The translations under genes were made by a program, and so were the position numbers. 44,355 nt of DNA from Escherichia coli (GTDB taxonomy: Bacteria > Pseudomonadota > Gammaproteobacteria > Enterobacterales > Enterobacteriaceae): assembly GCF_044324785.1 (NCBI RefSeq), contig NZ_CP172130.1. One strand, given 5' to 3'. The notes below the pieces were generated by a model. It did no database searches. It was not told the origin of the DNA and was given only the letters and a program-made list of their open reading frames with translations. Shown piece by piece: positions 1,820-37,610 of this stretch (within the stretch, counting starts at the first letter, position 1; the number at the start of each line of letters is the position of its first letter).

Positions 1820-2793
1820 GAATCTCCTATCAGTTTATATTTTCTGCTTGGGTTGCCAAGTGTTATCGAGTCCAGTTCATGTGAGTAATGATGTGTATGA
1901 TAATGTGCTGGATTTTTCAGATAATCAGGGAGTGATATTATTTTTCCGTAGCTAATTGCAGAATAAAACCAGTTGCGGAATGTCTCGCTGTTTGTTTTTA
2001 AAGCATCTTTTGGAATAAATGCTAATTTTATGTTAGAAACGTAATTAACAGGTTTAAGTGTGGTATGTCTGTTTTGTCCAAAGTCTTTTAAAGCATCTGT
2101 AAATTCATATTCTGATGTATAATTTTCTGTCTTATTACTAGGGTGTTTTATCTGGAATATGAATGAATAGTAGTTCTGGCCAAGTATTTCAACGGTGTTT
2201 GAATTTATGCTCAGTTGTTCAATAACCGCTTCTCTTTTATACTCTAATTTGTCTCTGACAGATTGATATACAACCATTGCTGCATGATGTGAACCACCAC
2301 TGTTTAAAGCCACATATCGGTCAATCCAAGAGTAATATTTAACATTAATAGGATCGCGAGGCTTGAAACCTTCATGCTCAATGTGCCATATATTATCCTC
2401 CCAGTCTGAAATATTTTCAGCTTTCAGATTTTCGGCAGGATACATCCCCTCTCCCCACGAATAAAGATCTTTGAACCAACTACCATTTATTACCTTGCTC
2501 CATCCACAACCGAAACTTTTCGAGTCAGTCAGAGATTGTATTTTGTTAAAATCGAAGTCCAGAGAGTGTTTCTTATCTGTAGTTATTAAGTTGCTCAGAA
2601 TTTCAGCCAGATCCCTGTCAATATATCTCAGTGAGTATTCGCTAAATATATTTTCAAGCTGCAATATGGTGTCTGCATCTGCTGTAGGTTTAAATAACTT
2701 AATATCAGCAAGATTTTTAAACGTTGCTGTGGTCAGTTTATGGTGATCTGTCAACCTGTAGAGGTTACAGATCAATTCGGTTAAATATCTCAT
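1816..2793 (-). CDS. Hypothetical protein (325 aa), AT-rich accessory gene, no recognised domain
   Basis: Long uninterrupted ORF convergent with the 118-aa gene; strongly AT-rich codon usage unlike neighbouring backbone genes. Confidence 0.55.
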   Translation of the reverse strand: MRYLTELICNLYRLTDHHKLTTATFKNLADIKLFKPTADADTILQLENIFSEYSLRYIDRDLAEILSNLITTDKKHSLDFDFNKIQSLTDSKSFGCGWSKVINGSWFKDLYSWGEGMYPAENLKAENISDWEDNIWHIEHEGFKPRDPINVKYYSWIDRYVALNSGGSHHAAMVVYQSVRDKLEYKREAVIEQLSINSNTVEILGQNYYSFIFQIKHPSNKTENYTSEYEFTDALKDFGQNRHTTLKPVNYVSNIKLAFIPKDALKTNSETFRNWFYSAISYGKIISLPDYLKNPAHYHTHHYSHELDSITLGNPSRKYKLIGDS

Positions 2794-2817
2794 AGATTTT
2801 CATCCATGCTTCTATGG

Positions 2818-3099
2818 TTAGAATTTTGCAGACTCAAGCAACCAGTGATTCTTTATGTTTTCATCCTGGCTGTTGTACATCGCCAGCGCCGCTTTGAGAA
2901 CGGTTGTTTTGCTCTGCCCTGTTCTGATAGCTTCAGCTTCCAGTATGTCCTCAAAATGGGCAGAAAGTCTGAAGTTCATCAACTTTGGTTTACCCACTAC
3001 AGGCGCTCTGGTAGCGCCGGAGATAAAACGCGCGGTTTCTGCGTTTGTTGCTGGTTGCTGAGATTCATCGATGTTCGGACGGTTTAGTTTCAAAGCCAT
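2818..3099 (-). CDS. Small partition/centromere-binding protein, ribbon-helix-helix type (ParG/ParB-like)
   Basis: 93-aa ORF immediately downstream of the parA-like gene; start chosen at ATG preceded by AAGGGGA; basic N-terminus and short size typical of ParG-like partners. Confidence 0.6.
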   Translation of the reverse strand: MALKLNRPNIDESQQPATNAETARFISGATRAPVVGKPKLMNFRLSAHFEDILEAEAIRTGQSKTTVLKAALAMYNSQDENIKNHWLLESAKF

Positions 3100-3198
3100 G
3101 ACAATTTCCCCTTGTACGGTATGCATTAATAGTAAATATCATACCGTCTTTATATTATCTTTACAATGTAAAGATTGTTATAGATGGTATTGATATTA

Positions 3199-3861
3199 CT
3201 ATAAAATTCCAATTTCCTGCGCTACTAGTTCAATCTGTGCTTTCGCTGTTGAAAGGCTTGATGCCCGGCTAACGTCATGTACCCCTGCCCCTTCATTACA
3301 GGCGCTTTCATACACATCCAGCTCGGATATCCGGGTTTTAAGAGGTTGAATCCAGATGTTGTCCGACCGCAGTAATTTATCCAGATCAATGGCCGCTTTT
3401 CTGTGGCGGGGTTTTGCTGAGTTGATTCTGGTGAACAGCACCCACGGTTCCAGGGCTGCGTTAGCTTTCTGAGCGGTGCGGATTTTCTCTGTAACACTGG
3501 TCAGTGTTTCGCTTTCGAAATCAGAGGACGGCTTAACCAGTGTTACCACGATATCTGATACTGTCAGGGCGCTACGGAACTCCTGGCTGTCGTGGCCGGG
3601 GCAATCGACAATGAGGACTTCACACAGCTTACTAAGTCGCTTAATTTCATTGCTGACGTTTCCGTAAGCTGCGTGAACCGGGATAGTGAGTAAGCCGTTA
3701 TCTGTCCGCTTTTCGTTCCAGCTCAACAGATCGTGGTTTTTATCTGTCTTGAGGATAATTACCGACTTACCTTTATTGACTAGCATTGAGCCTGTGTTAG
3801 CCACGTAGGTACTTTTTCCTACACCACCCTTATCTGATACGACAAGCAAGATTTTACCCAT
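3199..3861 (-). CDS. parA: ParA/ParF-family partition ATPase
   Basis: Deviant Walker A motif KGGVGKST at the N-terminus; 220 aa; followed by a small basic protein; flanked by repeat arrays. Confidence 0.85.
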   Translation of the reverse strand: MGKILLVVSDKGGVGKSTYVANTGSMLVNKGKSVIILKTDKNHDLLSWNEKRTDNGLLTIPVHAAYGNVSNEIKRLSKLCEVLIVDCPGHDSQEFRSALTVSDIVVTLVKPSSDFESETLTSVTEKIRTAQKANAALEPWVLFTRINSAKPRHRKAAIDLDKLLRSDNIWIQPLKTRISELDVYESACNEGAGVHDVSRASSLSTAKAQIELVAQEIGIL

Positions 3862-3882
3862 TTGAGAATTCCTCTCTTTATC

Positions 3883-4110
3883 ATGTAAAGATCATGTAAA
3901 GATCGTCTTGTCTTTACATTGTGTGTTTTCTGTAAAGATGATTTTATCTTTACAGTGTCTTTATATTACATAGGATTTACCATGTAAAGCACAAATAAAG
4001 ACAATCATGTATTTATGTTATCTTTATTTTGTAAAGACTAGCGCATCATTATATTGGCTTTACATAGTAAATCAGTACTTGTCTTTACATCATATTTACG
4101 TTGTAAATTT
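3883..4110. repeat. Array of about 11 TGTAAAG/CTTTACA heptamer repeats in both orientations (candidate centromere/operator, possibly overlapping a res site)
   Basis: Repeated CATGTAAAG, CTTTACA, CTGTAAAG, TTGTAAAG motifs between the par operon and the resolvase gene; a related palindrome CTTTACAATGTAAAG lies at about 3150..3175. Confidence 0.5.
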
Positions 4111-4223
4111 TCATGTGACATTGTCACTTTATGACCAGAGGTCTGTTTTCTGGTTCTTTTAGAGTGTGCCTTTCCTGTCGATCTACTTTCTGGTGCATTT
4201 TGGGTATAGTGGTATAACCTTAT

Positions 4224-4880
4224 GTGAACCGGTTCTGTAATATGACTTCAAATGTACCAACAAGCTTTGTCCGCGCTTATCTGAGAGCTTCAACAGCAGA
4301 ACAGGATGCTTCGCGTGCCCTGGAAACTATCGAGGCTTTTGCCAGGGAAAGAGGCCTGATCATTTGCAGCTACTATATTGAGAATGAATCCGGCACCCGT
4401 CTTGAGCGCCCGGAACTTTTTCGTCTTCTGAGAGATTGCCAACAAAATGACATTTTGCTTATCGAGGATGTGGACAGACTTTCCCGCCTGTCAGGGGAAG
4501 ACTGGAATACGTTGAAGAAAATGATCCGGCAGAAAGACATCCGGGTTATGGCGGTGAATGTGCCGACGACATGGATTAATTCTGGTATGAGTGAGTTTGA
4601 TAGCCGGTTGTTTGCAGCCATTAACGATATGCTGCTGGATATGCTGGCCGCTGTTGCCAGAAGGGACTATGAACAACGGCGGGAACGCCAGAAACAAGGG
4701 ATAGAGAAAGCAAGGAAAGACGGCAAATATAAAGGGCGTAAACCTAATCAAGCCAGACATGATGCAATTATCAGGTTGATAGAAAGCGGTAGCTCCTGGA
4801 CACAGGTACAGAAAGTGCTAGGGTGCAGCCGTGGCACAATCAGTAGCGCAATAAAACGTAAATCCCGGCAATCACTCTAG
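4224..4880 (+). CDS. Serine recombinase (resolvase family), probable multimer-resolution resolvase
   Basis: N-terminal catalytic motif AYLRASTAEQ; size and C-terminal HTH region typical of resolvases. The true start may be the ATG at 4242 (MTSNVP...). Confidence 0.8.
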   Translation: MNRFCNMTSNVPTSFVRAYLRASTAEQDASRALETIEAFARERGLIICSYYIENESGTRLERPELFRLLRDCQQNDILLIEDVDRLSRLSGEDWNTLKKMIRQKDIRVMAVNVPTTWINSGMSEFDSRLFAAINDMLLDMLAAVARRDYEQRRERQKQGIEKARKDGKYKGRKPNQARHDAIIRLIESGSSWTQVQKVLGCSRGTISSAIKRKSRQSL

Positions 4881-7084: not shown

Positions 7085-7344
7085 CCGTTTCTCCAGGTTG
7101 ATACTGGAGGAAGTCGCCGTTGCTTGCTCATACATCGCCTGTCACAACGGCTCTCTCACATTGTTGGATGTAGAGTACCTTCCCCCTGCCAGAGCACTGA
7201 ACACAGCACCACCTGTTTGTTCAGCCAGGACTTTAATTCGTTCATACCCAGATAGCGCAGGGTTTAGAAGCAAGGGAGGCACACTGTACAGCGCCAACAC
7301 AAAGATTATACGGGGTCTGACGCTCAGTGGAACGAAAACTCACG

Positions 7345-25779: not shown

Positions 25780-27617
25780 AGCAAAACCTCAGACTCCAGC
25801 TCCCCTACGGAGAGCATTTTTTCTTTTGACGGATATTTAAGCCCTTTCACACCAAATATTTTTTTCGTCTTATTTAGTTCCATCGTCAATGATGCCAGTT
25901 TAGGACTGACCTTCATTAACCTGTCCATAAAATACGGATCAAGGTAATAAAGTGCCTTTTCTGCTTTAACAGGGTTCTCCCCCTTCAGGATGATAAATTC
26001 TTCTTTAAAGTCCAGCGTTCCCAGCTCCTGTGGAAGCACCAGTGCTCTTCGGGCTTCACTTTCTGATTCGCCCTGTGAAGCTGATCGTCCCCGGCTCTTG
26101 CTTGTGCTCTTTGATGTGGTTGTAATATACCCAAGTTTTTCTGATATCTTCGCGGCATCATCCTCTTCGCTGACAGCATAGATAATACGGCATGGATGAG
26201 CACTCATCAGCGTTTTGGCTCCCTCAATACCATAGATTTCATTTAGCTGACTGATATTCTGATAAATCGTCAGCAGTTTAAGTTTAAAACCTGCAATATA
26301 CCCTGACCCCTTTTTAATAATTGGCATATAACCAATCGAAGGGAACTCATCAAGAAACATCAGGCAGTCATGTTTCAGGGTGGGATCAAAATCAGGATTT
26401 TCACGCAATGTCACTTCAACAACGAAGTTGAAAAACAGGTTCAGAAAATCGTAAGCCAGAGATATATCTTCCGCATTAACACCGACATAAACAGTGATAT
26501 CTTCCCGTCGCAACTGACGGAGATCGAAATCATTACCATCAGTACATTTACGAACGGTTGGGAGATAAAACAGGCTCATTTTCTTACGGAAAGAACCATC
26601 AATGCTTGAACGCTGTTCATCTTCCGTTTCGTGATATTCCCTGATTTTGGTCAGGGCATCGCGCAAATGATACAACGCGTTTTCATCAAGTCCGTTTGTT
26701 CCCTCCAGTTCTTCCCGCTTACTGAGTATCAGTTCCCTGTCAATATTGCTGTACAGGTCGACGACAGAACCGATTGAGAAAACGGGTTTAAGCCCGAACT
26801 CATTAAGCCAGGACGGCTCATAGTTAATAAAGAAATGAAGCAACTTAGCCAGTCCTGTCCAGTACTGACCAGCAAGGTTATTAAAGTGCGCTTCTGCCCC
26901 TGTCATGCCGTAAGACGGAAACAGAATTTCAATCAGTTTAAGCAGATCCTTAGCACCACTCTCTGCTTTTAAATCAATATAGAAAAGGGGGTTAAACTGA
27001 TGTGTCTTACTGTTGAATGGGTCGAGAAGATAAACTTTATTACCCAGCAGTATTTCACGCACCTTACTGGTGATTTTCCACAATTCCTGTTTTGGATCTA
27101 ACGCAATCAGAGAGTGTTTTCTGACCAGAAGATTAGGGATACCAATGGCGGCACCTTTACCGGCGCGGGTTCCTGCACCAAGAGATACAAAATCCGGGGC
27201 GGTATACCACAGATATTTTCCTTTATACGCGCCGACCAGAATATCCGTATCATTTTCTGTCTCCCACTTAAGCAGTTTTGATTTTTTTAAATCATTGTCA
27301 CTGGCAAACTTCGCATCACCATAAAGAGCAACATCCATTTTATTCAGTTGCCAGATAACAAAAACAGGCACAATGAGAGACGAAACCATACCTGACAAAA
27401 GAGAAGGTATGGCAGTCAGTCTGATATCTGTACGTATATTACTCTCTGTTATTATTTTCCAGAGCAACATGGAATCAAAATTTTTCCATATATACAGTGG
27501 TGTTTTTCCGTTCAGGAAATAAACAGAAACAGAACCAGCATAATAGGTCACGAGACACATAACCAGACCGATAAAAACCCACTGGCCTTTATCGGGGAGT
27601 TTTAAAGACATAATCAC
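25776..27617 (-). CDS. taxB: Type IV coupling protein (VirD4/TraG family)
   Basis: 613 aa; N-terminal transmembrane helices; Walker A GAGTRAGKG; position directly after virB11. Confidence 0.85.
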   Translation of the reverse strand: MIMSLKLPDKGQWVFIGLVMCLVTYYAGSVSVYFLNGKTPLYIWKNFDSMLLWKIITESNIRTDIRLTAIPSLLSGMVSSLIVPVFVIWQLNKMDVALYGDAKFASDNDLKKSKLLKWETENDTDILVGAYKGKYLWYTAPDFVSLGAGTRAGKGAAIGIPNLLVRKHSLIALDPKQELWKITSKVREILLGNKVYLLDPFNSKTHQFNPLFYIDLKAESGAKDLLKLIEILFPSYGMTGAEAHFNNLAGQYWTGLAKLLHFFINYEPSWLNEFGLKPVFSIGSVVDLYSNIDRELILSKREELEGTNGLDENALYHLRDALTKIREYHETEDEQRSSIDGSFRKKMSLFYLPTVRKCTDGNDFDLRQLRREDITVYVGVNAEDISLAYDFLNLFFNFVVEVTLRENPDFDPTLKHDCLMFLDEFPSIGYMPIIKKGSGYIAGFKLKLLTIYQNISQLNEIYGIEGAKTLMSAHPCRIIYAVSEEDDAAKISEKLGYITTTSKSTSKSRGRSASQGESESEARRALVLPQELGTLDFKEEFIILKGENPVKAEKALYYLDPYFMDRLMKVSPKLASLTMELNKTKKIFGVKGLKYPSKEKMLSVGELESEVLL

Positions 27618-28646: not shown

Positions 28647-29852
28647 TTAACCCCCTTTCATTTTCAGTTTATAAATACCTGAAAAATCCAGATCCTGACC
28701 GACAATCAGAGTAATAATTTCTCCCTGATTTTTATAAAGCGTTGGCGGGATATTCACACTATTAGAAAATGCTTCGCGTGCTATATCAGCAAAAGCCTGG
28801 CGGCTGTTAGCTGTATAGTCCGTCTGACTGTCCCTGTTATTCTGAGCAATACCACTGGCCGCCTGACTTAAATCCGGTATCATCCCGACCATCATTGCAC
28901 CAAGAAAACGTTCACTGAAATGAGTGTCAATCCAGCCAGAAGCACCGGCTTCGCCTAACGCGCCAGCCGCCTGTGAGTCAACCAGGGGAATATCAATAAA
29001 AGGCTTACTGCGGGTACGTAGCTTATAAGCCATAACAAACACACGCCCTTGTCCATGATTTAAAGACCCGGCCTTATACATCAGTTTTGCGGCGGTTCCT
29101 CTTTCGATAAGTTTTACATTGCCACTGGCGCTGTATATATCACTGTTGACCGTACATTCCAGTTTCCCCGCCAGGTCAGAAACAAAACGCCTGTCCAGTG
29201 AACAGGGAATTGATGTCCCTTCCGGGATAAACAAATTTGGGTCATATGGAAGTTTCGTTATTTTCGCCAGTGGCGCAGATTCTGTAGCCTGTGCGGTTGC
29301 TTTTGCTTCATCCTTTTTATCGCTTTCTGGCTCACTGGCCGCAGTATGTGAAACTGACGTTCCCGCTGAACTGCTGCTGTTTCCTGCCTGGCTGCCATCA
29401 AGAGAAACGTCAAGTGCACGGCTGAAGCTCTGCTGTTTATTTTCCGGCGGTTCAGTCTTTTCAGAAGAAATGACTTTTTCTTCCTCTGGTTTCTCTGTTT
29501 TTTTCTGTGCGGTATTAAAAGGATCGATATCTTCGCTCAGTCCGGTCTGACGTTTAGCCTCTCCGGTTGCAAGCGGCTGACTTGCGGGTTTCTCATCCCC
29601 TGACGACACAGAACGGATAATGGACGGGATATAATAAACAGAAACACCGGCAGCAAGCAGAAGAAAACCCACGACGAGGATAATCATCCCTTTACGTGAT
29701 TTTTTAAGTTTTTCAATACCAAGCTGCAATGCTGGCTTGCCAAGCTCTTCTTCCGGGGTCTTCCCGGCCTGTTCCAGTTCTTTCTGTCTGCGTTCCCGTA
29801 ACTGCTGTTCAATTTCGGTTGCAGTCGGGATTTTATTTTCCTGTTCAGTCAC
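28647..29852 (-). CDS. pilX10: T4SS VirB10 homologue
   Basis: 401 aa; N-terminal transmembrane helix, Pro/Glu-rich linker, conserved C-terminal domain; gene order. Confidence 0.8.
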   Translation of the reverse strand: MTEQENKIPTATEIEQQLRERRQKELEQAGKTPEEELGKPALQLGIEKLKKSRKGMIILVVGFLLLAAGVSVYYIPSIIRSVSSGDEKPASQPLATGEAKRQTGLSEDIDPFNTAQKKTEKPEEEKVISSEKTEPPENKQQSFSRALDVSLDGSQAGNSSSSAGTSVSHTAASEPESDKKDEAKATAQATESAPLAKITKLPYDPNLFIPEGTSIPCSLDRRFVSDLAGKLECTVNSDIYSASGNVKLIERGTAAKLMYKAGSLNHGQGRVFVMAYKLRTRSKPFIDIPLVDSQAAGALGEAGASGWIDTHFSERFLGAMMVGMIPDLSQAASGIAQNNRDSQTDYTANSRQAFADIAREAFSNSVNIPPTLYKNQGEIITLIVGQDLDFSGIYKLKMKGG

Positions 29853-30782: not shown

Positions 30783-31496
30783 TTAACCTCTGGCTTCTTT
30801 ATCGCGAACGTAGCTTGTTACAACGAACTTAAGAGGATTGTTATTACGTTCCCCTGACACCATTTCAACCTGCGGTTCGATACGATAAGTCAGGCGAACA
30901 TTCCAGAACTCCTGGCGGGTTTGTCCGGTAGCAACATCCCTGATGGTCAGACGAAAACGAATATACGCACCGATATCTTTATCATCCGTCCGTGACGAAG
31001 GTGAAATTATGACAGATGGATTATCCTGAACCATTGCCGTTTTTTCTGCTTTGTTATAAACAAGTTTTGGTGCCTGTTCACTGTTAAATAATGCGTTATA
31101 ATCTGCCGCGACATTCTCCGCGCTGCAAGCCATTACATAATCATAATCATGCTGGAGACTGAAAAAATTATAACCTTCACGATGTTTTATATACTGGGTG
31201 ATAAAATATCGGGCAATGGCTTCGTTTTCAGAAAGATTTTCTTTTTTAACAGAAGTCAGACGTTCAGCCACACCTGTAACCTTATCGATAAGGTAGGCAT
31301 CAACAACTGTTGTTTTCAGTGGTAATGCTGCATTTAATGCAAGTAAAGACAGCCCACCAATTAACATGCCTCCGATACCACCGAATTTATAAATACGATT
31401 CATTCTCTCCTGTAGTGCAATGTTTTTTTCTTCAAACGAAACTGATGAGTCAGTAACGTCTTTTTTATTTTTAAATCCGGGAAGTTTAAATTCCAT
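30783..31496 (-). CDS. pilX8: T4SS VirB8 homologue
   Basis: 237 aa; single N-terminal transmembrane helix; gene order. Confidence 0.8.
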   Translation of the reverse strand: MEFKLPGFKNKKDVTDSSVSFEEKNIALQERMNRIYKFGGIGGMLIGGLSLLALNAALPLKTTVVDAYLIDKVTGVAERLTSVKKENLSENEAIARYFITQYIKHREGYNFFSLQHDYDYVMACSAENVAADYNALFNSEQAPKLVYNKAEKTAMVQDNPSVIISPSSRTDDKDIGAYIRFRLTIRDVATGQTRQEFWNVRLTYRIEPQVEMVSGERNNNPLKFVVTSYVRDKEARG

Positions 31497-31614
31497 TTTG
31501 CATTACCTCAGCAGAATTAACAGGTTCGCTTTTCCCGGAAACGGGCGGTAGTTTATGTGACGCCTGACAACCAGCGAGACAAAGCGTCACGAAAGCCACA
31601 ATAAGTAGTTTCAT
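31486..31614 (-). CDS. pilX7: T4SS VirB7-like lipoprotein (42 aa)
   Basis: MKLLIVAFVTLCLAGCQ... lipobox; overlaps the pilX8 start; not in the ORF track because it is under 60 aa. Confidence 0.6.
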   Translation of the reverse strand: MKLLIVAFVTLCLAGCQASHKLPPVSGKSEPVNSAEVMQNGI

Positions 31615-31740
31615 AATATGAACACCTGTATAACAGATTAATATTTACAGAAGACTCAGTCTGAACAAAGAAAATAGATCGCGACAAGCCCGTTAATTAT
31701 GAAAAGAACATTTAAAATGGTATCAACACTCATAATTAAA

Positions 31741-32874
31741 TCACCCTCCATACATTTTCTTTGCCCTCTCAATAGCTGCCTGACGAAGCTTTTTGGCACC
31801 AATATTAACGCCCTGTCCGGCCAGGTTAGCGGTCTTACCCGTTATTCCCGGAGACTGACCAAACCCGCCTTCCTGACGACGCAGACCTTTCCATGCACCA
31901 ATACCGGCATTTCTGCCCATACCAAGTGCGCCACGCGCCATACGGGATGCACCGAAAACGCCAGCACCAATCCCCATAGCGGCTGCGCCCTGCATGGCAC
32001 CTTCAACACCCACACCTGCAATCTGTGAAGCATAACTTTTCGCCTGCCAGATAATCCAGGCCATGAAAATGCCAGCAGCTAATGAAGTTACTCCCGTTTG
32101 AAGAAGATTGTTTTCTGATGCTGTAGCAATAGACGTACTTAATGCCATGTTTAATTGCCATGTCCCAGCTCTTAGTGCTAATGCTGCAAATAGAAAAACC
32201 AGTAACGAGCTAAAATTAAGCTGTAGCCAGCTATTAAACATTTGCCGAAGGAAACCAAACATCAAACACATGATAAATATTGGCGCAGTGACAGAAAGTA
32301 ATAGTAATGTTAATTCAGCAGCTGCAAATACTATAGAACAAAGCAATAATGCCAAAACACCACCAACATAAGTTAATAAAGCACCAATCCCACCGGCAAC
32401 AGGCACAGTAGATGTATCTTTATCAAAAATAAGAGTTGCAACTTGTATAACCTTCACCCATAACTGATCCATCCATACCCACGGATCTCCCCCTGCCAAT
32501 GTATTTTTCAATCCATCAATAGCATCTGTTGCTGATGTAAGTATTCCCCCTGTATTCTTAACAAAAAGCAATATTATGTAAAACCTACAGATATTCCAGA
32601 TAAAATCAGGTACAGGTGTCTGTTGTTTCCTTGCTAATACAGTAAAGGCATACCATAAAACATACAGAGAAACTCCATATTTACCAAGAGTATAAGCCAC
32701 ATCTGAATATTCACTTAATTTTCCAGATATACTCTTATTGAGAATGTTAAATATAACTTCATGAGTTGTCTGAAAAAAATCAGAATCAAACCCAGGAACA
32801 CCTCCCGCATTTGCGGGAGAGGTTACATTACCTGATAAATCAGTACCATCCGGTATACCAGTGACAATCCCCAT
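31741..32874 (-). CDS. pilX6: T4SS VirB6 homologue (polytopic membrane protein)
   Basis: 377 aa, multiple transmembrane segments; gene order. Confidence 0.8.
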   Translation of the reverse strand: MGIVTGIPDGTDLSGNVTSPANAGGVPGFDSDFFQTTHEVIFNILNKSISGKLSEYSDVAYTLGKYGVSLYVLWYAFTVLARKQQTPVPDFIWNICRFYIILLFVKNTGGILTSATDAIDGLKNTLAGGDPWVWMDQLWVKVIQVATLIFDKDTSTVPVAGGIGALLTYVGGVLALLLCSIVFAAAELTLLLLSVTAPIFIMCLMFGFLRQMFNSWLQLNFSSLLVFLFAALALRAGTWQLNMALSTSIATASENNLLQTGVTSLAAGIFMAWIIWQAKSYASQIAGVGVEGAMQGAAAMGIGAGVFGASRMARGALGMGRNAGIGAWKGLRRQEGGFGQSPGITGKTANLAGQGVNIGAKKLRQAAIERAKKMYGG

Positions 32875-32883
32875 ACATCACCC

Positions 32884-33111
32884 TCAATTTATTGGTAAAC
32901 CAACCGCCTTTCTCCGTTCAAAAGACAAATGTGCTCGCTTAACGTTCTTACAATTATCAGAATCGCTACCAGACTTCTGACACTCTTCAAATTTTTTGTA
33001 TGTCTCCTTCGGATGTGCAAGCCACCAATCAACCGATTTTGTTTCTTCAAAACATCCAGAAAGACTAAAAACAGATATAATGACAAGGCCAGCAGTAGCG
33101 ATACTTTTCAT
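32884..33111 (-). CDS. Small lipoprotein between virB5 and virB6, positionally equivalent to the entry-exclusion protein Eex of pKM101-type systems
   Basis: Signal peptide with lipobox LSGC (MKSIATAGLVIISVFSLSGC); 75 aa. Confidence 0.5.
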   Translation of the reverse strand: MKSIATAGLVIISVFSLSGCFEETKSVDWWLAHPKETYKKFEECQKSGSDSDNCKNVKRAHLSFERRKAVGLPIN

Positions 33112-33870
33112 TTAATCATCCTCATATGATTTCATTGCCATATAAGCTTTTCTGTAAGAAGGAGGCACGGCTTCACGTTGCTGTTTTCTGAAAGAAGCCT
33201 GAGCCATCTTCTCTTTATATTCTGCAAGATCTCGCTGCTTATCGCGATACATTTGATACTGAAATTTGAGCTTCTCGAACTTCAGTTGTTCAAGTGCAAC
33301 AGCGTTTGTTGCATCCTGCGTGGCCTTCGTATCCTTCGCATTTTTGACTTGATCAATAAGGTCTTTCATCGTCTGGTTGTCCTGACGAAGCTTGCTCTCC
33401 AGCTTGTTACCGTATTCCACGCTTGCCAGTTGAGAAAGGAACGTCGCTTCACATCCCCGTACCAGGTCGCCGGAATATCCCAGGTTCTGGCAGGTATCCG
33501 TTACTTTGTAATCCGACAATAACGATTTGGCCTGTTCCGATAACGCCCCTTCAGGATTTTTAATGTAATCGTCAATAAAAGCATTCCCCTGATCATAAAT
33601 CTGCATCAGTTCCTGACTCACTGACTGTGCGGACTGCACCAGTCCCTGCACATCACGGATACCCGTTTTTGACAGCAGCTCCTGTTTGTACGCATTTATC
33701 TGATTTTCGTAATGTTTTACCGTTTCCGCCCATTGCTTAAGGCGTTCTGTCCATCGTCCGGCTTCAATCGCCCATTCAGGGTTGGCGTCGATGGCAACAG
33801 GTATCCCTGCCTGAGCGCCGGAAATAACAATCAGTGAAGCGACGAATGCCGCCATAATTTGCTTTTTCAT
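33112..33870 (-). CDS. pilX5: T4SS VirB5 homologue (minor pilus subunit)
   Basis: 252 aa with signal peptide; helical content; gene order. Confidence 0.75.
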   Translation of the reverse strand: MKKQIMAAFVASLIVISGAQAGIPVAIDANPEWAIEAGRWTERLKQWAETVKHYENQINAYKQELLSKTGIRDVQGLVQSAQSVSQELMQIYDQGNAFIDDYIKNPEGALSEQAKSLLSDYKVTDTCQNLGYSGDLVRGCEATFLSQLASVEYGNKLESKLRQDNQTMKDLIDQVKNAKDTKATQDATNAVALEQLKFEKLKFQYQMYRDKQRDLAEYKEKMAQASFRKQQREAVPPSYRKAYMAMKSYEDD

Positions 33871-33880
33871 TGGTGATTCC

Positions 33881-36634
33881 TCAAATCAGGTTCGCCTGTT
33901 CCAGATAGGTATCAAGCCACTCTTCCGGCTTCATTCCTTCTTTCCAGATTTCATCGAACAGTTCTAACTGGGGTTTTGATGCACTGAGAACCGGTAAGTA
34001 ATACGCTGCTTTTCCCAGCTCCAGTCTGGCAAAAGCAGCAAAATCATCACTTTCACCTTTCCTCTGTGGGTTCTTAACAACCAGGAACTGGCGGGACAGC
34101 GGATCAATAGCTTTAATTTTGTCAAAATAAAGCTCCCTGACCTGCAAACCATCAACATATTCACTACGTTTGGCTTTCGGGTTTGCCAGATAGATATGAG
34201 TGGCGCATTGCTCACGAACCGCTGCCGCAATGGGTGATTTAATCAGTTCATCCGGTGACTGTGTGGCTACGACAAGCACCATATCGAGTTTGCGTCCGGT
34301 TTTCAGTTTGTTGTAAACAAAGTCCCTGAACGCTTCGTTATTGATCCATTGCCAGAACTCATCCATGTAGATAAGAAGCCTGCGACCATCGGCCAGCATG
34401 GTGACCCGATAGATGAGATAGAATGAAGCAGCACTGGCCAGCACCTTATTATCCAGGAACTCCGTTCCATCAATACCGAAAACATCCAGGTTATCGACAT
34501 CAAACGTGTCTTCCCGATTGTCGAACACCCAGCCAAACTCTTCCCCCTGCGTCCACGGCTTAAGACGGGCTTTAAGTCCATGACGTTTGGTTTCAGTATC
34601 ATCCGGCTCCTGGATAAGAGGCCGTAGTTTACTGATAGGATAAGAGCGATCTGACCGTTGCATAAGACGTTCAACCGCATCTGAAATCAGGCTGTTCTGG
34701 TAATCATCGAGCGGCTCACTGTTGAGAGTACAAAGCAGCCTCACCAGGTCCTTCATAAAAGCGATATTACGTTTTGTTGGCGGCAGTGCGGCGGGATTCC
34801 AGCCTGTCGGCTCTCCCTCCTTCACCCGGTAATAAGATCCCCCCATAGCCCGTATACCGACTTCACCTGCCCGGTCTTTATCGAAAAAAACCGTGGTCAG
34901 TTTTTTCAGTTTTCTGTTTGCAGGGAATGATTCCGGCGTACCGAACTGCTGGGCGGCAAATGCTTTTGTCATCAGTAATACGGTTTTACCCACGTTAGAC
35001 GTACCGAGAATTTCGGTATGCCCCAGCGTCGGGTTCTTACCGAAGAAATTCTGATGTTCAGTCGTCATATGGTAATTCAGATGGTAGATATCATTACCTG
35101 ACCCCCGAAGAGTAATCAGTTTTTCCCCCCAGGTATTTCCTTTTTCTTTTCCTGAAAAGAAATTATGAAAACTTTCCATTTCAGCAAAATTAAGACTACT
35201 GAGGGTACTCAGACGAGGGCGAAGCGTATAATTTCCTGGAAGCTGAGCAAAATAAGCTGCGCCAAGACTCAGTGTTGAATAAGTGACAATCAGCCCCAAA
35301 TCTTCCAGAGTGGAAGTCACGATATTGGTGTCTTTCACCAGACGCTCCGGTGAATCCGCAAAGACAACCAGGGTCTGATGCGATTTCCCGAAAGAAATAT
35401 ATCCGCTGGAAACCATATCCAGTCCGACTTTCAGATCTGCCAGCAAAGATTTGGCAGCATCATCCGTCATTTCCAGCTTATCGATCTGATCATCCAGCGC
35501 CTTAATCGCTGACTGCTTATCCATCGCAGTAAAGGACGATGTCACGACATACTCAACGGGGAGATACATCAGAGCATCCAGAATACCGGCATCCGTCTCC
35601 TGAAAATAATCCTTAATCTCTATGCAACGAAAATACCGGGCATGGTCTGACGCGGTAATTTGTCCGGCATCATTACCAAAGAACAGGTCTTTTCCTCCCA
35701 GATATGTATAAAACGGACTACTGCTAACCCTGACCTTTTGCCATCGACCAGAAAGCAGATACTGGAACAGAGATAACTGATCTGAATAAACAACCCCATG
35801 ATCTTCATAAAGCCCAAGACGTCGGGAATGAAAACGGGACAGATAGGTGTTCAACCTGTCGCAAATTTCATTCATTTCATTAACAGGCTCTTTAAAGATA
35901 TCTTTTTGTTTTTTACCGCGTGAAAAGAAATGCGTTACTTTATCTTCCGTAGTAAAAGGTTTAAAACAAATCGTCAGAAATAATTTATTCTCGAAAAATT
36001 CAGACTGAGGGAATGACTCGTAATAATCATTCATTACTCTGTTCACAAAAGGAATTTTACTGTTAAATACTGGTCTGACGTCCTTTTTACATCTGATACG
36101 ATGAGGATACAGCGTAACAGATTTCCCTTCAAAGCTACGTATAAGCGTATTGAGCTGATCTGTCAGAATTGACAAATCTTCAGAATCAACACACTCAAAG
36201 TAAGCACCGTCTATCTGCCAGGTTGCCAGCAAATCCCGGTTTTTTGTAACGATAATGTTGTCAGTGATATGTGAAGAGTACGGAATTAACTCTTCAACAG
36301 AAGACTGGTCTTTCAGCTTCATAAAGTTATCCACTTTTGAAATATCAACTTCGTCGTACTGGCTCCCCGCATAATGGACTGCGCTGAATCGCTTGTTTGA
36401 TAAAGGATGCCCTTTGACAAGGGTTCTCAGATACAGAAGGTCAAAAAAGCGTTCATCAAACTGTGTTACACGCCTGATGGCATACCAGCCAGGAAGAATG
36501 AGGGCGTACATAGCCTCATGAATCCAGACACCAAGCAGAACACAAATAATGCACATTCCAAGAAAGGGGTAGAGCGGAACGCCCAGCCCCCTTATTAAAG
36601 CAGGGCGCGTAAGACCTTTAAAAAGAGTACTCAT
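33881..36634 (-). CDS. pilX3-4: T4SS VirB3-VirB4 fusion ATPase
   Basis: 917 aa; N-terminal VirB3-like membrane segment fused to VirB4 ATPase (Walker A GTSNVGKT). Confidence 0.85.
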   Translation of the reverse strand: MSTLFKGLTRPALIRGLGVPLYPFLGMCIICVLLGVWIHEAMYALILPGWYAIRRVTQFDERFFDLLYLRTLVKGHPLSNKRFSAVHYAGSQYDEVDISKVDNFMKLKDQSSVEELIPYSSHITDNIIVTKNRDLLATWQIDGAYFECVDSEDLSILTDQLNTLIRSFEGKSVTLYPHRIRCKKDVRPVFNSKIPFVNRVMNDYYESFPQSEFFENKLFLTICFKPFTTEDKVTHFFSRGKKQKDIFKEPVNEMNEICDRLNTYLSRFHSRRLGLYEDHGVVYSDQLSLFQYLLSGRWQKVRVSSSPFYTYLGGKDLFFGNDAGQITASDHARYFRCIEIKDYFQETDAGILDALMYLPVEYVVTSSFTAMDKQSAIKALDDQIDKLEMTDDAAKSLLADLKVGLDMVSSGYISFGKSHQTLVVFADSPERLVKDTNIVTSTLEDLGLIVTYSTLSLGAAYFAQLPGNYTLRPRLSTLSSLNFAEMESFHNFFSGKEKGNTWGEKLITLRGSGNDIYHLNYHMTTEHQNFFGKNPTLGHTEILGTSNVGKTVLLMTKAFAAQQFGTPESFPANRKLKKLTTVFFDKDRAGEVGIRAMGGSYYRVKEGEPTGWNPAALPPTKRNIAFMKDLVRLLCTLNSEPLDDYQNSLISDAVERLMQRSDRSYPISKLRPLIQEPDDTETKRHGLKARLKPWTQGEEFGWVFDNREDTFDVDNLDVFGIDGTEFLDNKVLASAASFYLIYRVTMLADGRRLLIYMDEFWQWINNEAFRDFVYNKLKTGRKLDMVLVVATQSPDELIKSPIAAAVREQCATHIYLANPKAKRSEYVDGLQVRELYFDKIKAIDPLSRQFLVVKNPQRKGESDDFAAFARLELGKAAYYLPVLSASKPQLELFDEIWKEGMKPEEWLDTYLEQANLI

Positions 36635-36652
36635 AGTGCGCCCATCCTTTAA

Positions 36653-36982
36653 TTACGCAAGCCAGTTAGGAATATATGGTGCAACAATAAAGATGATAAT
36701 TCCGATAACGAGTGGGACTATCCATGCGGTATGTTGACGCGAAAATAATGCAATATATCCAATAACAAGAGCCATAATTGTAATTGCCGGTTTACGAACA
36801 TCCGTTAAAAAATCAATTATTTTCTGTAAAAAACCAGTTGTCTTCGTAGACACATCATCCGCAAAAGCAGGTTCTGCAACACAAAGCATCAACGCAGCCA
36901 TAAATAGAGAAAGCGTTAAATAACGTTTATTCAGATTTAATTTCGACATCTTTTGTTTCCTTTTCATTCGATACAGTGCCAC
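36653..36982 (-). CDS. pilX2: T4SS VirB2-type pilin
   Basis: 109 aa; long signal peptide and two hydrophobic helices typical of VirB2 pilins. Confidence 0.75.
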   Translation of the reverse strand: MALYRMKRKQKMSKLNLNKRYLTLSLFMAALMLCVAEPAFADDVSTKTTGFLQKIIDFLTDVRKPAITIMALVIGYIALFSRQHTAWIVPLVIGIIIFIVAPYIPNWLA

Positions 36983-37610
36983 GTATGGCGTATTGAGGAT
37001 ATATAATGATTTCTTCAGGTGTGATAGTCGTCTTGTTCTCCTTTTTAATCATTTCCTTTACAGAGGGAACAATAAAAATTTTTTTGTTATCAGGAGGGCT
37101 AAATCCTATACGTTGTACATAACTTGTATTATTAAATTCAGGTTCTGGTTTTACTCCTGTTTCTGGATTACCGGAATAATAGCAACTCAACCCGCGCACT
37201 AAGTCGCCACCTCGTTTATAACAGTCAACCAGTATTTTTTCTGATACCTTAAGATTTTCGCATGGATCAAACATTTTCTCTGCTGTCGTACCGAACTTTG
37301 CAAAATTGGTACTCGTTATTTGCATAAGTCCTACAGAGTAACGATGGTTCCGTGATTCAATGTTTTTAACGATACTAAGTGCTGCCTCCTTTGATTCAGG
37401 AAAGTAAGATACTACGCCTTTATCACCAGGTTTGTGTTTAACCTTTGGTATTATTTCCGCAATCGCATATGGGTTAAAACCTGATTCAACCCTGGCGACT
37501 TCGTGCGTTGTGTCAGGATGAACGCTGGCAGCGCATTGCATGGCAAGCGCAAGAAAAGTAGAAGTAGATAACATAAATATTCCACATTCAGAACACCGGG
37601 GCGCTATCAC
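36927..37610 (-). CDS. pilX1: T4SS VirB1-type lytic transglycosylase
   Basis: SLT-domain motifs (ESGFNPYA, GLMQI); signal peptide begins at the internal ATG (MLSTSTFLALA...), so the true start is probably 37571. Confidence 0.8.
   Translation of the reverse strand: MIAPRCSECGIFMLSTSTFLALAMQCAASVHPDTTHEVARVESGFNPYAIAEIIPKVKHKPGDKGVVSYFPESKEAALSIVKNIESRNHRYSVGLMQITSTNFAKFGTTAEKMFDPCENLKVSEKILVDCYKRGGDLVRGLSCYYSGNPETGVKPEPEFNNTSYVQRIGFSPPDNKKIFIVPSVKEMIKKENKTTITPEEIIIYPQYAIRGTVSNEKETKDVEIKSE

What the first reader, a model, noticed from the sequence alone, without database searches (positions are those of the whole stretch)
32884..33111. Eex-position lipoprotein inside the T4SS operon
A 75-aa lipoprotein sits between the virB5 and virB6 homologues, the position of the entry-exclusion gene in pKM101-type systems. 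It may set the exclusion specificity of this plasmid.
Basis: partly seen in the sequence, partly recalled or inferred. Interest (0 to 1): 0.35.

Follow-up and report, generated by a model that had tools for sequence, protein, structure and literature searches.

The report
IncX1 plasmid entry-exclusion lipoprotein gene
This small gene is the already-annotated entry-exclusion lipoprotein (eex) of an IncX1 resistance plasmid. Comparing related plasmids shows that it and the front part of the neighbouring VirB6 gene change together, which fits a matched lock-and-key pair deciding which sister plasmids are kept out.

Summary
A 75-aa lipoprotein ORF (32884-33111, minus strand; lipobox LSG|C) lies between the VirB5 and VirB6 homologues of an IncX1 plasmid's transfer operon.

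It matches NCBIfam NF033894, "EexN family lipoprotein" (74 bits, cutoff 33). It is 33% identical to the pKM101/R46 EexN. It is already annotated as EexN (WP_000835348.1) in more than 100 plasmid records identical over this region. The gene is therefore known, although I found no exclusion assay for any IncX plasmid.

The specificity idea gains comparative support:
- Among IncX1 backbones that are 96-100% identical, only mature Eex (57-70% aa identity) and the first ~285 residues of VirB6 (56-75%) are strongly diverged, in one sharply bounded block with saturated dS.
- Record counts for the eex allele and the virB6-N allele match exactly in PLSDB (155/155 and 64/64).
- In IncX4, eex lies 4.8 kb from virB6. 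Two separate divergent blocks exist there, and the same 20 plasmids carry both alleles.
- IncN has a similar variable block covering virB5, eexN and virB6.

Best reading: a recipient-side periplasmic lipoprotein that blocks cognate donors, probably by recognising VirB6-N. The donor target and the membrane location are inferred, not shown.

The parts
32884..33111 (-). eex: 75-aa EexN-family entry-exclusion lipoprotein gene (stop codon included)
   Evidence: ORF. NF033894 74.3 bits, cutoff 33. Identical gene annotated 'EexN family lipoprotein' WP_000835348.1 in NZ_CP104480.1.
33052..33111 (-). Codons 1-20: signal peptide and lipobox LSGC (Cys20 is the lipidated residue)
   Evidence: Sequence. 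69 of 74 family members have a lipobox. AF2 pLDDT is about 60 here, against more than 90 for residues 21-75.
33022..33051 (-). Codons 21-30 (FEETKSVDWW): family-conserved start of the mature protein, identical in the window and the L005 allele
   Evidence: Alignments.
32887..33021 (-). Codons 31-75: the allele-specific part of mature Eex. It holds helix 2, the conserved Cys44/Cys54 pair, helix 3 and the short tail ending LPIN.
   Evidence: This 137-nt stretch is >=99% identical in 155 PLSDB records and has no other blastn hit. dN is 0.55-0.61 against the other IncX1 alleles, with dS saturated. Helices.
33119..33123 (-). GAGGA Shine-Dalgarno-like motif 7 nt before the eex ATG, inside the end of virB5 (translational coupling)
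   Evidence: Read directly from the sequence. No sigma-70-like promoter was found upstream of eex inside virB5.
33112..33870 (-). virB5 (pilX5) homologue, 252 aa
   Evidence: PF07996. 99.2% identical to L005; the last ~10-30 codons diverge in L006 and L008.
32020..32874 (-). virB6 (pilX6) codons 1-285: the variable N-terminal/transmembrane part that co-varies with eex. Proposed donor-side specificity determinant.
   Evidence: 56-75% aa identity between IncX1 alleles, dS 1.0-1.9. >=95% identical in exactly 155 PLSDB records, the same number as the eex allele.
31741..32019 (-). virB6 codons 286-377: invariant C-terminal tail (stop included); right boundary of the allelic cassette
   Evidence: 97.8-100% aa identity in all IncX1 alleles.
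31486..31614 (-). 42-aa VirB7-like lipoprotein ORF (lipobox LAGC), overlapping the virB8 start. This, not eex, is the structural T4SS lipoprotein.
   Evidence: ORF. Weak VirB7 match NF010433, E 0.095. 100% conserved in L005, L006 and L008. Annotated 'conjugal transfer protein' in CP099199.1.

Best explanation
The ORF is the eex gene of an IncX1 conjugative plasmid. It encodes a small secreted lipoprotein of the EexN family. It is made in plasmid-carrying cells, translationally coupled to virB5 and virB6 in the pilX operon. After signal-peptide cleavage it is lipid-anchored at Cys20. Its roughly 55-residue three-helix domain, probably stapled by a Cys44-Cys54 disulfide, faces the periplasm. When a donor with the same exclusion type mates with this cell, Eex blocks a post-contact step of transfer, so redundant transfer and lethal zygosis are avoided. 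Specificity lies in residues 31-75 of Eex. It is matched to the variable N-terminal ~285 residues of the donor's VirB6, so eex plus virB6-N behave as one allelic exclusion-group cassette. What is shown: the ORF, the lipobox, family membership, synteny, and allelic co-variation with virB6-N. What is inferred: the exclusion phenotype (by homology to pKM101 EexN), VirB6-N as the target, the disulfide, and which membrane carries the anchor. The confidence of 0.8 is for the core claim, an EexN-type entry-exclusion factor that carries allele-specific exclusion. For VirB6-N as the donor target alone I would give about 0.5.
For: Family and position:
- NF033894 scores 74 bits against a cutoff of 33.
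- 33% identity over 54 aa to R46/pKM101 EexN, with the shared motif VDW[WY]..H.KE....EEC.K....CKN.
- The same virB5-eex-virB6 order occurs in R46.
- pKM101 eex is the experimentally defined exclusion gene (Pohlman 1994, as cited in PMC8923210).

Fold:
- The AF2 model has pLDDT above 90 for residues 21-75, with helices 27-31, 34-47 and 52-69.
- Cys20, Cys44 and Cys54 are at least 90% conserved.
- 60 of 69 members have exactly two Cys in the mature part, spaced 10 residues apart in 47.

Specificity cassette in IncX1:
- Against three other IncX1 backbones, most T4SS proteins are 96-100% identical. VirB2 is lower at 86-94%. The strongly diverged ones are Eex (57-70%) and VirB6 (75-81%).
- The divergent block is sharply bounded, from window ~33021/33215 to ~32016.
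- dS is saturated inside the block and 0.01-0.08 outside it.
- Allele record counts match exactly: 155/155 and 64/64.
- VirB2 is identical in L005 and L008 although their Eex differs. The VirB5 C-terminus is identical in the window and L005 although their Eex differs. VirB6-N is therefore the only T4SS part that differs in every pair.

Non-adjacent test in IncX4:
- eex lies 4.8 kb from virB6. There are two separate divergent blocks with 97-100% identical DNA between them.
- The same 20 accessions carry both alleles.

IncN: R46 and pN3 show a similar variable block over virB5, eexN and virB6.

Literature:
- The donor target in IncP/IncW/IncN is 'unknown', with VirB6 suspected from adjacency (PMC11493245).
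- Known donor partners in other systems are all VirB6 homologues (PMC12282955).
Against: - No exclusion assay exists for this protein or any IncX eex that I could find.
- In IncX1 the co-variation is confounded by physical adjacency (9 nt).
- In IncX4 the two allele sets could simply mark two clonal lineages. Other small divergent patches exist there too (taxA, the pixR-like gene, the virB2 3' end).
- In IncX4, L006, L008 and IncN the block also includes the VirB5 C-terminus or all of virB5. In RP4 the VirB5 homologue TrbJ itself contributes to exclusion and resistance (PMC11045733). VirB5 may therefore be a target or co-target.
- How a recipient's periplasmic lipoprotein could reach a donor VirB6, which sits at the base of the T4SS stalk, is unexplained.
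- The +2 residue is Phe, not Asp, and only 7 of 69 family members have Asp there. Inner- versus outer-membrane anchoring cannot be decided.
Confidence: 0.8

Rival explanations
1. Eex is the exclusion factor, but the donor-side determinant is not VirB6-N. The target would be VirB5 (pilus tip/stalk), especially its C-terminus, or another component. On this view virB6-N divergence hitch-hikes with eex, or reflects VirB5-VirB6 structural co-evolution or phage/host-range pressure.
For: - The divergent block includes the last ~10-37 codons of virB5 in L006, L008 and IncX4, and all of virB5 in IncN.
- In RP4, recipient-expressed TrbJ (VirB5 homologue) as well as TrbK protects against the cognate T4SS (PMC11045733).
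- VirB5 is the part of the machine expected to touch the recipient.
- eex and virB6 are only 9 nt apart in IncX1.
Against: - The window and L005 have 99.2% identical VirB5, with identical C-termini, yet different mature Eex and VirB6-N. The left breakpoint lies inside eex.
- In IncX4 the virB6-N block co-occurs with the eex allele across 4.8 kb of conserved DNA.
- All three IncX1 alleles share the same right boundary inside virB6.
Confidence: 0.2
2. The lipoprotein is mainly an immunity or protective factor against envelope damage by the cognate T4SS (lethal zygosis, T4SS-mediated antagonism), rather than a block to DNA entry as such.
For: In RP4, TrbK and TrbJ expressed in recipients confer cognate-specific resistance to T4SS killing that is independent of DNA transfer (PMC11045733). 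Eex-type genes occur as orphans on small non-conjugative plasmids. This fits a purely protective role.
Against: This overlaps with entry exclusion rather than replacing it. pKM101 eex was defined by reduced plasmid entry (cited). TrbK is not a detectable homologue of EexN (hhalign probability 3.6%), so carrying the result over is by analogy only.
Confidence: 0.1
3. It is a structural or assembly lipoprotein of the T4SS (VirB7-like), needed in the donor for pilus or channel function, and not an exclusion factor.
For: It is a small lipoprotein encoded inside the T4SS operon and translationally coupled to virB5 and virB6.
Against: - A separate, 100% conserved VirB7-like lipoprotein ORF sits in the canonical place before virB8 (31486-31614).
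- eex has been relocated out of the virB5/virB6 position in IncX4 and IncX7 (PMC8725589).
- Eex is the least conserved protein of the operon, which would be unusual for a structural core part.
- One natural plasmid contig carries eex cut by IS2.
Confidence: 0.04

Closest known systems
EexN of IncN plasmids pKM101/R46 (NCBIfam NF033894; Pohlman, Genetti & Winans 1994)
   Same: Both are 75 aa and are lipoproteins. They share the core motif VDW[WY]..H.KE....EEC.K....CKN with two conserved Cys. Both lie between the VirB5 and VirB6 homologues of an MPF_T system.
   Different: Identity is only 33% over 54 aa. The +2 residue is Phe here and Asp in R46, so membrane sorting may differ. The plasmid backbone differs (IncX1/MOBP versus IncN/MOBF). 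Function has been shown for pKM101 but not for any IncX plasmid.
eex of other IncX plasmids (R6K IncX2, pOLA52/R485 IncX1, IncX3, IncX4)
   Same: Same family, annotated eex/EexN. It lies between pilX5 and pilX6 in most subgroups (PMC8725589; PMC5955891).
   Different: The window allele is the short-tailed 75-aa form. It is 57-70% identical over the aligned part to the 94-95-aa alleles of other IncX1 plasmids, and 48-51% identical to the IncX4 alleles. In IncX4 and IncX7 the gene sits upstream of pilX1.
TrbK of IncP plasmids (RP4/R751)
   Same: It is the same size (75 aa in R751), is a lipoprotein, has two Cys in the mature part, and lies between the VirB5-like trbJ and the VirB6-like trbL. It is a demonstrated entry-exclusion factor.
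   Different: There is no detectable sequence homology beyond the signal peptide (hhalign probability 3.6%). TrbK has Asp at +2 and is located in the inner membrane.
TraS/TraG of F-like plasmids and Eex/TraG of SXT/R391 and IncA/C elements
   Same: The logic is the same: a recipient-side exclusion protein paired with an adjacent donor-side VirB6-family protein, with allelic exclusion groups inside one plasmid family.
   Different: Those exclusion proteins are polytopic inner-membrane proteins, not lipoproteins. Their specificity determinants are cytoplasmic, and the MPF type is F or G, not T. They are not homologous to EexN.

Membership tests
EexN family lipoprotein (NCBIfam NF033894) | Sequence match to the family HMM above the curated cutoff | tested here: met
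   74.3 bits against a cutoff of 33, E 5.2e-21, covering residues 4-62 and profile positions 4-63 of 65.
EexN family lipoprotein (NCBIfam NF033894) | N-terminal lipoprotein signal peptide with a lipobox Cys | tested here: met
   MKSIATAGLVIISVFSLSG|C. 69 of 74 aligned family members have a lipobox.
EexN family lipoprotein (NCBIfam NF033894) | Small mature domain with two conserved Cys about 10 residues apart and the (V)DW[WY]..H motif | tested here: met
   Cys44 and Cys54 are at least 90% conserved, spaced 10 residues apart as in 47 of 60 members. The motif is shared with R46 EexN.
EexN family lipoprotein (NCBIfam NF033894) | Encoded in an MPF_T transfer operon between the virB5 and virB6 homologues | tested here: met
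   This feature is not universal: in IncX4 the gene lies upstream of virB1.
EexN family lipoprotein (NCBIfam NF033894) | Expression in a recipient lowers entry of the cognate plasmid (exclusion index well above 1) | not testable with these tools
   No IncX exclusion assay was found in the literature searches. R6K eex is called 'putative'.
TrbK (IncP entry-exclusion lipoprotein) | Sequence homology to TrbK | tested here: not met
   hhalign of the family alignment A1 against R751 TrbK gave probability 3.6%, with only the signal peptide aligned. There was no Pfam hit.
VirB7 (T4SS core lipoprotein) | Match to VirB7 models, and a position immediately upstream of and overlapping virB8 | tested here: not met
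   The eex product gave no VirB7 hit. A different ORF (31486-31614) occupies the VirB7 position and has the weak VirB7 match.
TraS / SXT-type Eex (inner-membrane exclusion proteins) | Polytopic inner-membrane protein without a lipobox | tested here: not met
   The mature Eex is hydrophilic and helical, with one cleavable signal peptide only.

The most novel reading that the evidence does not exclude
eex residues 31-75 and VirB6 residues 1-285 (sometimes with the VirB5 C-terminus) form a balanced-polymorphism 'exclusion-group' cassette. It splits IncX1 into at least four mutually non-excluding groups, and IncX4 and IncN into at least two each. It also identifies the presumably periplasmic N-terminal part of VirB6 as the so-far unknown donor target of EexN-type lipoproteins in MPF_T systems. 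The window and CP099199.1 (L005) plasmids differ essentially only in this cassette and have identical VirB5. They therefore offer a ready-made natural swap experiment.
Probability: 0.45. Interest if true: 0.55.

Novelty: already known. Interest (0 to 1): 0.3.

Why it matters
IncX1 plasmids spread resistance genes among E. coli, Salmonella and Klebsiella from food animals and people. Exclusion type decides which related plasmids can enter a cell that already carries one. That affects co-residence, recombination between resistance plasmids, and plasmid epidemiology.

The gene itself is routine annotation. The comparative pattern around it bears on an open point: the donor target of lipoprotein-type exclusion factors in IncN/IncW/IncP/IncX systems is still described as unknown (PMC11493245). 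The eex/virB6-N co-variation gives a concrete hypothesis that can be tested cheaply. It also suggests that typing schemes for IncX and IncN plasmids could usefully record the exclusion allele.

Tried and rejected
- Pfam gave no hit for Eex.
- A PDB sequence profile search returned only signal-peptide noise, E > 0.3.
- Foldseek of the AF2 model against PDB found nothing with E < 1, so there is no structural precedent.
- Homology to TrbK was tested and rejected.
- A sigma-70 promoter scan found no site upstream of eex within virB5, so there is no evidence for independent transcription.
- P0009 looked like a discordant case, with a different Eex and an identical VirB6. It turned out to be the window allele cut by IS2 at a contig end, so it is not a recombinant.
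- The P0013 contig (L010) is riddled with frameshifts and was discarded.
- P0006 (L009) is a scrambled remnant on a Yersinia IncFII-like contig and says nothing about linkage.
- The long proteins hit in the representative search (P0035, P0042, P0043) match only short hydrophobic stretches and were ignored.
- I did not try a fused Eex-VirB6 AF2 prediction. The tool returns no inter-residue error or coordinates, so an interface could not be judged.
- My global alignment gave 89% for R46 versus pN3 VirB4. This conflicts with 96-100% nucleotide identity and is probably an alignment or frame artefact, so I did not use it.

Full report
**1. Observation**

The ORF exists exactly as described. It runs 32884..33111 on the minus strand, starts with ATG and encodes 75 aa. 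The N-terminus MKSIATAGLVIISVFSLSG|C is a lipoprotein signal peptide with lipobox LSGC.

The gene is wedged between a 252-aa VirB5 homologue (33112..33870, PF07996) and a 377-aa VirB6 homologue (31741..32874, PF04610). The virB5 stop TAA abuts the eex ATG, with GAGGA 7 nt upstream. The eex stop lies 9 nt before the virB6 ATG. The three genes are therefore probably translationally coupled. A simple scan found no sigma-70-like promoter in front of eex.

The surrounding operon is a complete MPF_T system on the minus strand:
- VirB1, 36927..37610
- VirB2, 36653..36982
- a VirB3-VirB4 fusion, 33881..36634
- VirB5, Eex and VirB6 as above
- a 42-aa VirB7-like lipoprotein, 31486..31614
- VirB8, VirB9, VirB10 and VirB11, ending at 27614
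- a NusG/RfaH-like ActX upstream

**2. Identity of the window and of the gene**

Window 31400-34000 is 100% identical to well over 100 PLSDB plasmids typed IncX1/MOBP/MPF_T, from E. coli, Salmonella and Klebsiella. In them the gene is annotated 'EexN family lipoprotein' (WP_000835348.1).

The protein matches NCBIfam NF033894 at 74.3 bits against a cutoff of 33. It has no Pfam family. It aligns with the R46/pKM101 protein named eexN at 33% identity over 54 aa. That protein is also 75 aa and lies between the VirB5- and VirB6-like genes. The shared motif is VDW[WY]..H.KE....EEC.K....CKN.

IncX papers already call this gene eex (PMC5955891; PMC8725589). The R6K preprint still calls it 'putative'. 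I found no exclusion assay for any IncX plasmid. Experimental proof exists for pKM101 (Pohlman et al. 1994, cited).

**3. The protein**

The family has 87 clusters at 50% identity in 1.84 billion proteins, nearly all 70-95 aa long. In a 74-sequence alignment, Cys20, Cys44 and Cys54 are at least 90% conserved. 69 of 74 members have a lipobox. 60 of those 69 have exactly two Cys in the mature part, spaced 10 residues apart in 47.

AF2 with this alignment gives a confident model: pLDDT above 90 for residues 21-75, with helices 27-31, 34-47 and 52-69. The two Cys sit at the end of helix 2 and the start of helix 3. A disulfide staple in the periplasm is my inference.

No PDB sequence or fold relative was found. 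IncP TrbK has the same size, lipoprotein nature, position and proven function, but it is not detectably homologous (hhalign probability 3.6%).

The +2 residue is Phe. Across the family it is Gly in 16 members, Lys in 14, Phe in 9 and Asp in only 7. R46 EexN and TrbK have Asp. Under the E. coli +2 rule (general knowledge), most members, including this one, would not be retained in the inner membrane. Localisation is therefore open.

**4. Does it set specificity? Comparative test in IncX1**

I compared the window with three other IncX1 backbones: L005 (CP099199.1), L006 (NZ_CP091660.1) and L008 (NZ_CP120320.1).

- Most T4SS proteins are 96-100% identical. VirB2 is lower, at 86-94%. The strongly diverged ones are Eex, at 70/57/59%, and VirB6, at 81/80/75%.
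- A 100-nt sliding comparison shows one sharply bounded divergent block. The left edge is at about 33021 against L005, inside eex after codon 30. Against L006 and L008 it is at about 33215, in the last codons of virB5. The right edge is at about 32016 in all three, at virB6 codon 285.
- The last 92 residues of VirB6 are 98-100% identical.
- Inside the block dS is saturated: 1.0-1.9 for virB6-N, and not calculable for eex codons 33 to the end. In the flanks dS is 0.01-0.08.
- dN is 0.55-0.61 for mature Eex and 0.17-0.28 for VirB6-N.

The alleles are therefore ancient relative to the backbone. They are either maintained or imported, not recent mutations.

In PLSDB the allele-specific part of eex is >=99% identical in 155 records, with no other blastn hit. 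The matching virB6-N is >=95% identical in exactly 155 records. For the L005 allele the counts are 64 and 64.

VirB2 is identical in L005 and L008 although their Eex and VirB6-N differ. The VirB5 C-terminus is identical in the window and L005 although their Eex differs. VirB6-N is thus the only T4SS part that differs whenever Eex differs.

**5. Controlling for adjacency**

Adjacent genes co-vary trivially. IncX4 gives a natural control, because there eex lies upstream of virB1, 4.8 kb from virB6 (also noted in PMC8725589).

pNG14043 and pUA1138 are 97-100% identical over the backbone. VirB1 is 99.5% identical, VirB3-4 99.7%, and VirB8 and VirB9 100%. They have two separate divergent blocks:
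- one over a pixR-like gene plus eex (Eex 47% aa identity);
- one over the last ~37 codons of virB5 plus the first ~250 codons of virB6.

The pUA1138 eex allele is >=99% identical in 20 records. Its virB6-N allele is >=99% identical in 20 records. These are the same 20 accessions. The second-tier alleles (95.3% for eex, 97.9% for virB6-N) share every accession visible in both lists.

In IncN, R46 and pN3 differ in one block (79-94% nt identity) covering virB5, eexN and virB6 up to about 80 nt before its end, within flanks that are 97-100% identical.

The pattern is therefore general for this type of transfer system. It remains correlative. Clonal structure could produce the IncX4 concordance, and the VirB5 C-terminus is often included in the block.

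**6. Mechanism**

*Shown:* a conserved lipoprotein of the EexN family, and allele-level coupling with VirB6-N.

*Inferred:* it acts in the recipient to block cognate donors. Residues 31-75 carry specificity. The most variable VirB6 segments are residues 1-60, 106-180 and 241-270. By analogy with Agrobacterium VirB6 topology (my recollection, not tested here), these are periplasmic and form the recognised surface.

This matches the F TraS/TraG and SXT Eex/TraG logic and the field's suspicion. PMC11493245 states that the target in IncP/IncW/IncN 'remains unknown' and that adjacency suggests VirB6. PMC12282955 notes that all known donor partners are VirB6 homologues.

Two points are unexplained. 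It is unclear how a recipient's periplasmic protein meets a donor VirB6 at the base of the stalk. It is also unclear whether VirB5 participates. In RP4, TrbJ (the VirB5 homologue) and TrbK each protect recipients in a cognate-specific way (PMC11045733).

**7. Verdict**

The gene is already known and annotated, so the finding itself is ordinary. The added value is the eex/virB6-N allelic cassette. It turns 'may set the exclusion specificity' into a concrete experiment using natural plasmid pairs.

Noticed in passing
L004 (NZ_CP030792.1, 4231 bp) 2415-3762; L003 (NZ_CP148294.1, 4237 bp) 481-1194 and 3455-4235: Tiny 'non-mobilizable' E. coli plasmids carry orphan exclusion modules and no other transfer genes. 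pAPEC-O2-211B has Rep_1, an EexN lipoprotein and a full-length VirB6 (PF04610). Two further 4195-bp plasmids are 83% identical to it over this module. The other plasmid (L003) has VirB5, RepL, EexN and a partial VirB6. This recalls SGI1, which evades IncC exclusion by substituting a VirB6 homologue (PMC11493245).
   Followed up: partly
L011 (GCA_047801145.1 contig DBFKOR010000035.1) 1-312; corresponds to window ~33021: A natural copy of the window's eex allele is interrupted by IS2 exactly after codon 30. This removes the signal peptide, while virB6 downstream is 99.7% identical. The junction coincides with the recombination breakpoint seen between the window and the L005 allele.
   Followed up: partly
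L015 (NZ_KY120364.1) 7196-7870 and 12371-13245 vs L016 (NZ_MW655525.1): In IncX4 plasmids eex sits upstream of virB1, next to a pixR-like regulator gene. That regulator gene is itself only 43% identical between two otherwise 97-100% identical backbones. A second, separate divergent block covers the virB5 3' end and the virB6 5' part.
   Followed up: yes
window 36416-36812 (virB2 3' half and the start of virB3-4): This is a second, smaller divergence hotspot. It is 70-82% nt identical to L006, and VirB2 pilin is 85% aa identical. L005 and L008 share one VirB2 allele, 94% identical to the window's. It is not linked to the eex allele and may reflect pilus-phage or recipient-contact pressure.
   Followed up: partly
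window 31486-31614 (-): A 42-aa VirB7-like lipoprotein ORF (MKLLIVAFVTLCLAGC...) overlaps the virB8 start and is 100% conserved in all IncX1 variants. It is missing from the gene table of NZ_CP104480.1 but is annotated 'conjugal transfer protein' in CP099199.1.
   Followed up: partly
L002 (R46) 7498-9397 vs L017 (pN3, NC_015599.1): IncN plasmids show the same phenomenon. A 1.9-kb block covering virB5, eexN and most of virB6 is 79-94% identical, within flanks that are 97-100% identical. PLSDB holds 146 records >=99% identical to the R46 query and 511 in the 90-95% identity band, which includes pN3 at 92.4%.
   Followed up: partly
L009 (Yersinia contig JBLWET010000978.1) 3407-4627: A scrambled remnant lies next to an IncFII repA on a 72-kb contig, without a T4SS. 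It consists of a partial virB5, an eex 84% identical to the window's, a repeated virB5 fragment and a 76-codon virB6 fragment.
   Followed up: no
window 27128-27527 and 28728-29127: There are minor divergent patches. The 3' part of the coupling-protein (VirD4/TaxB-like) gene is 86-93% identical to L005 and L008. Part of virB10 is 88-93% identical to L008 only.
   Followed up: no
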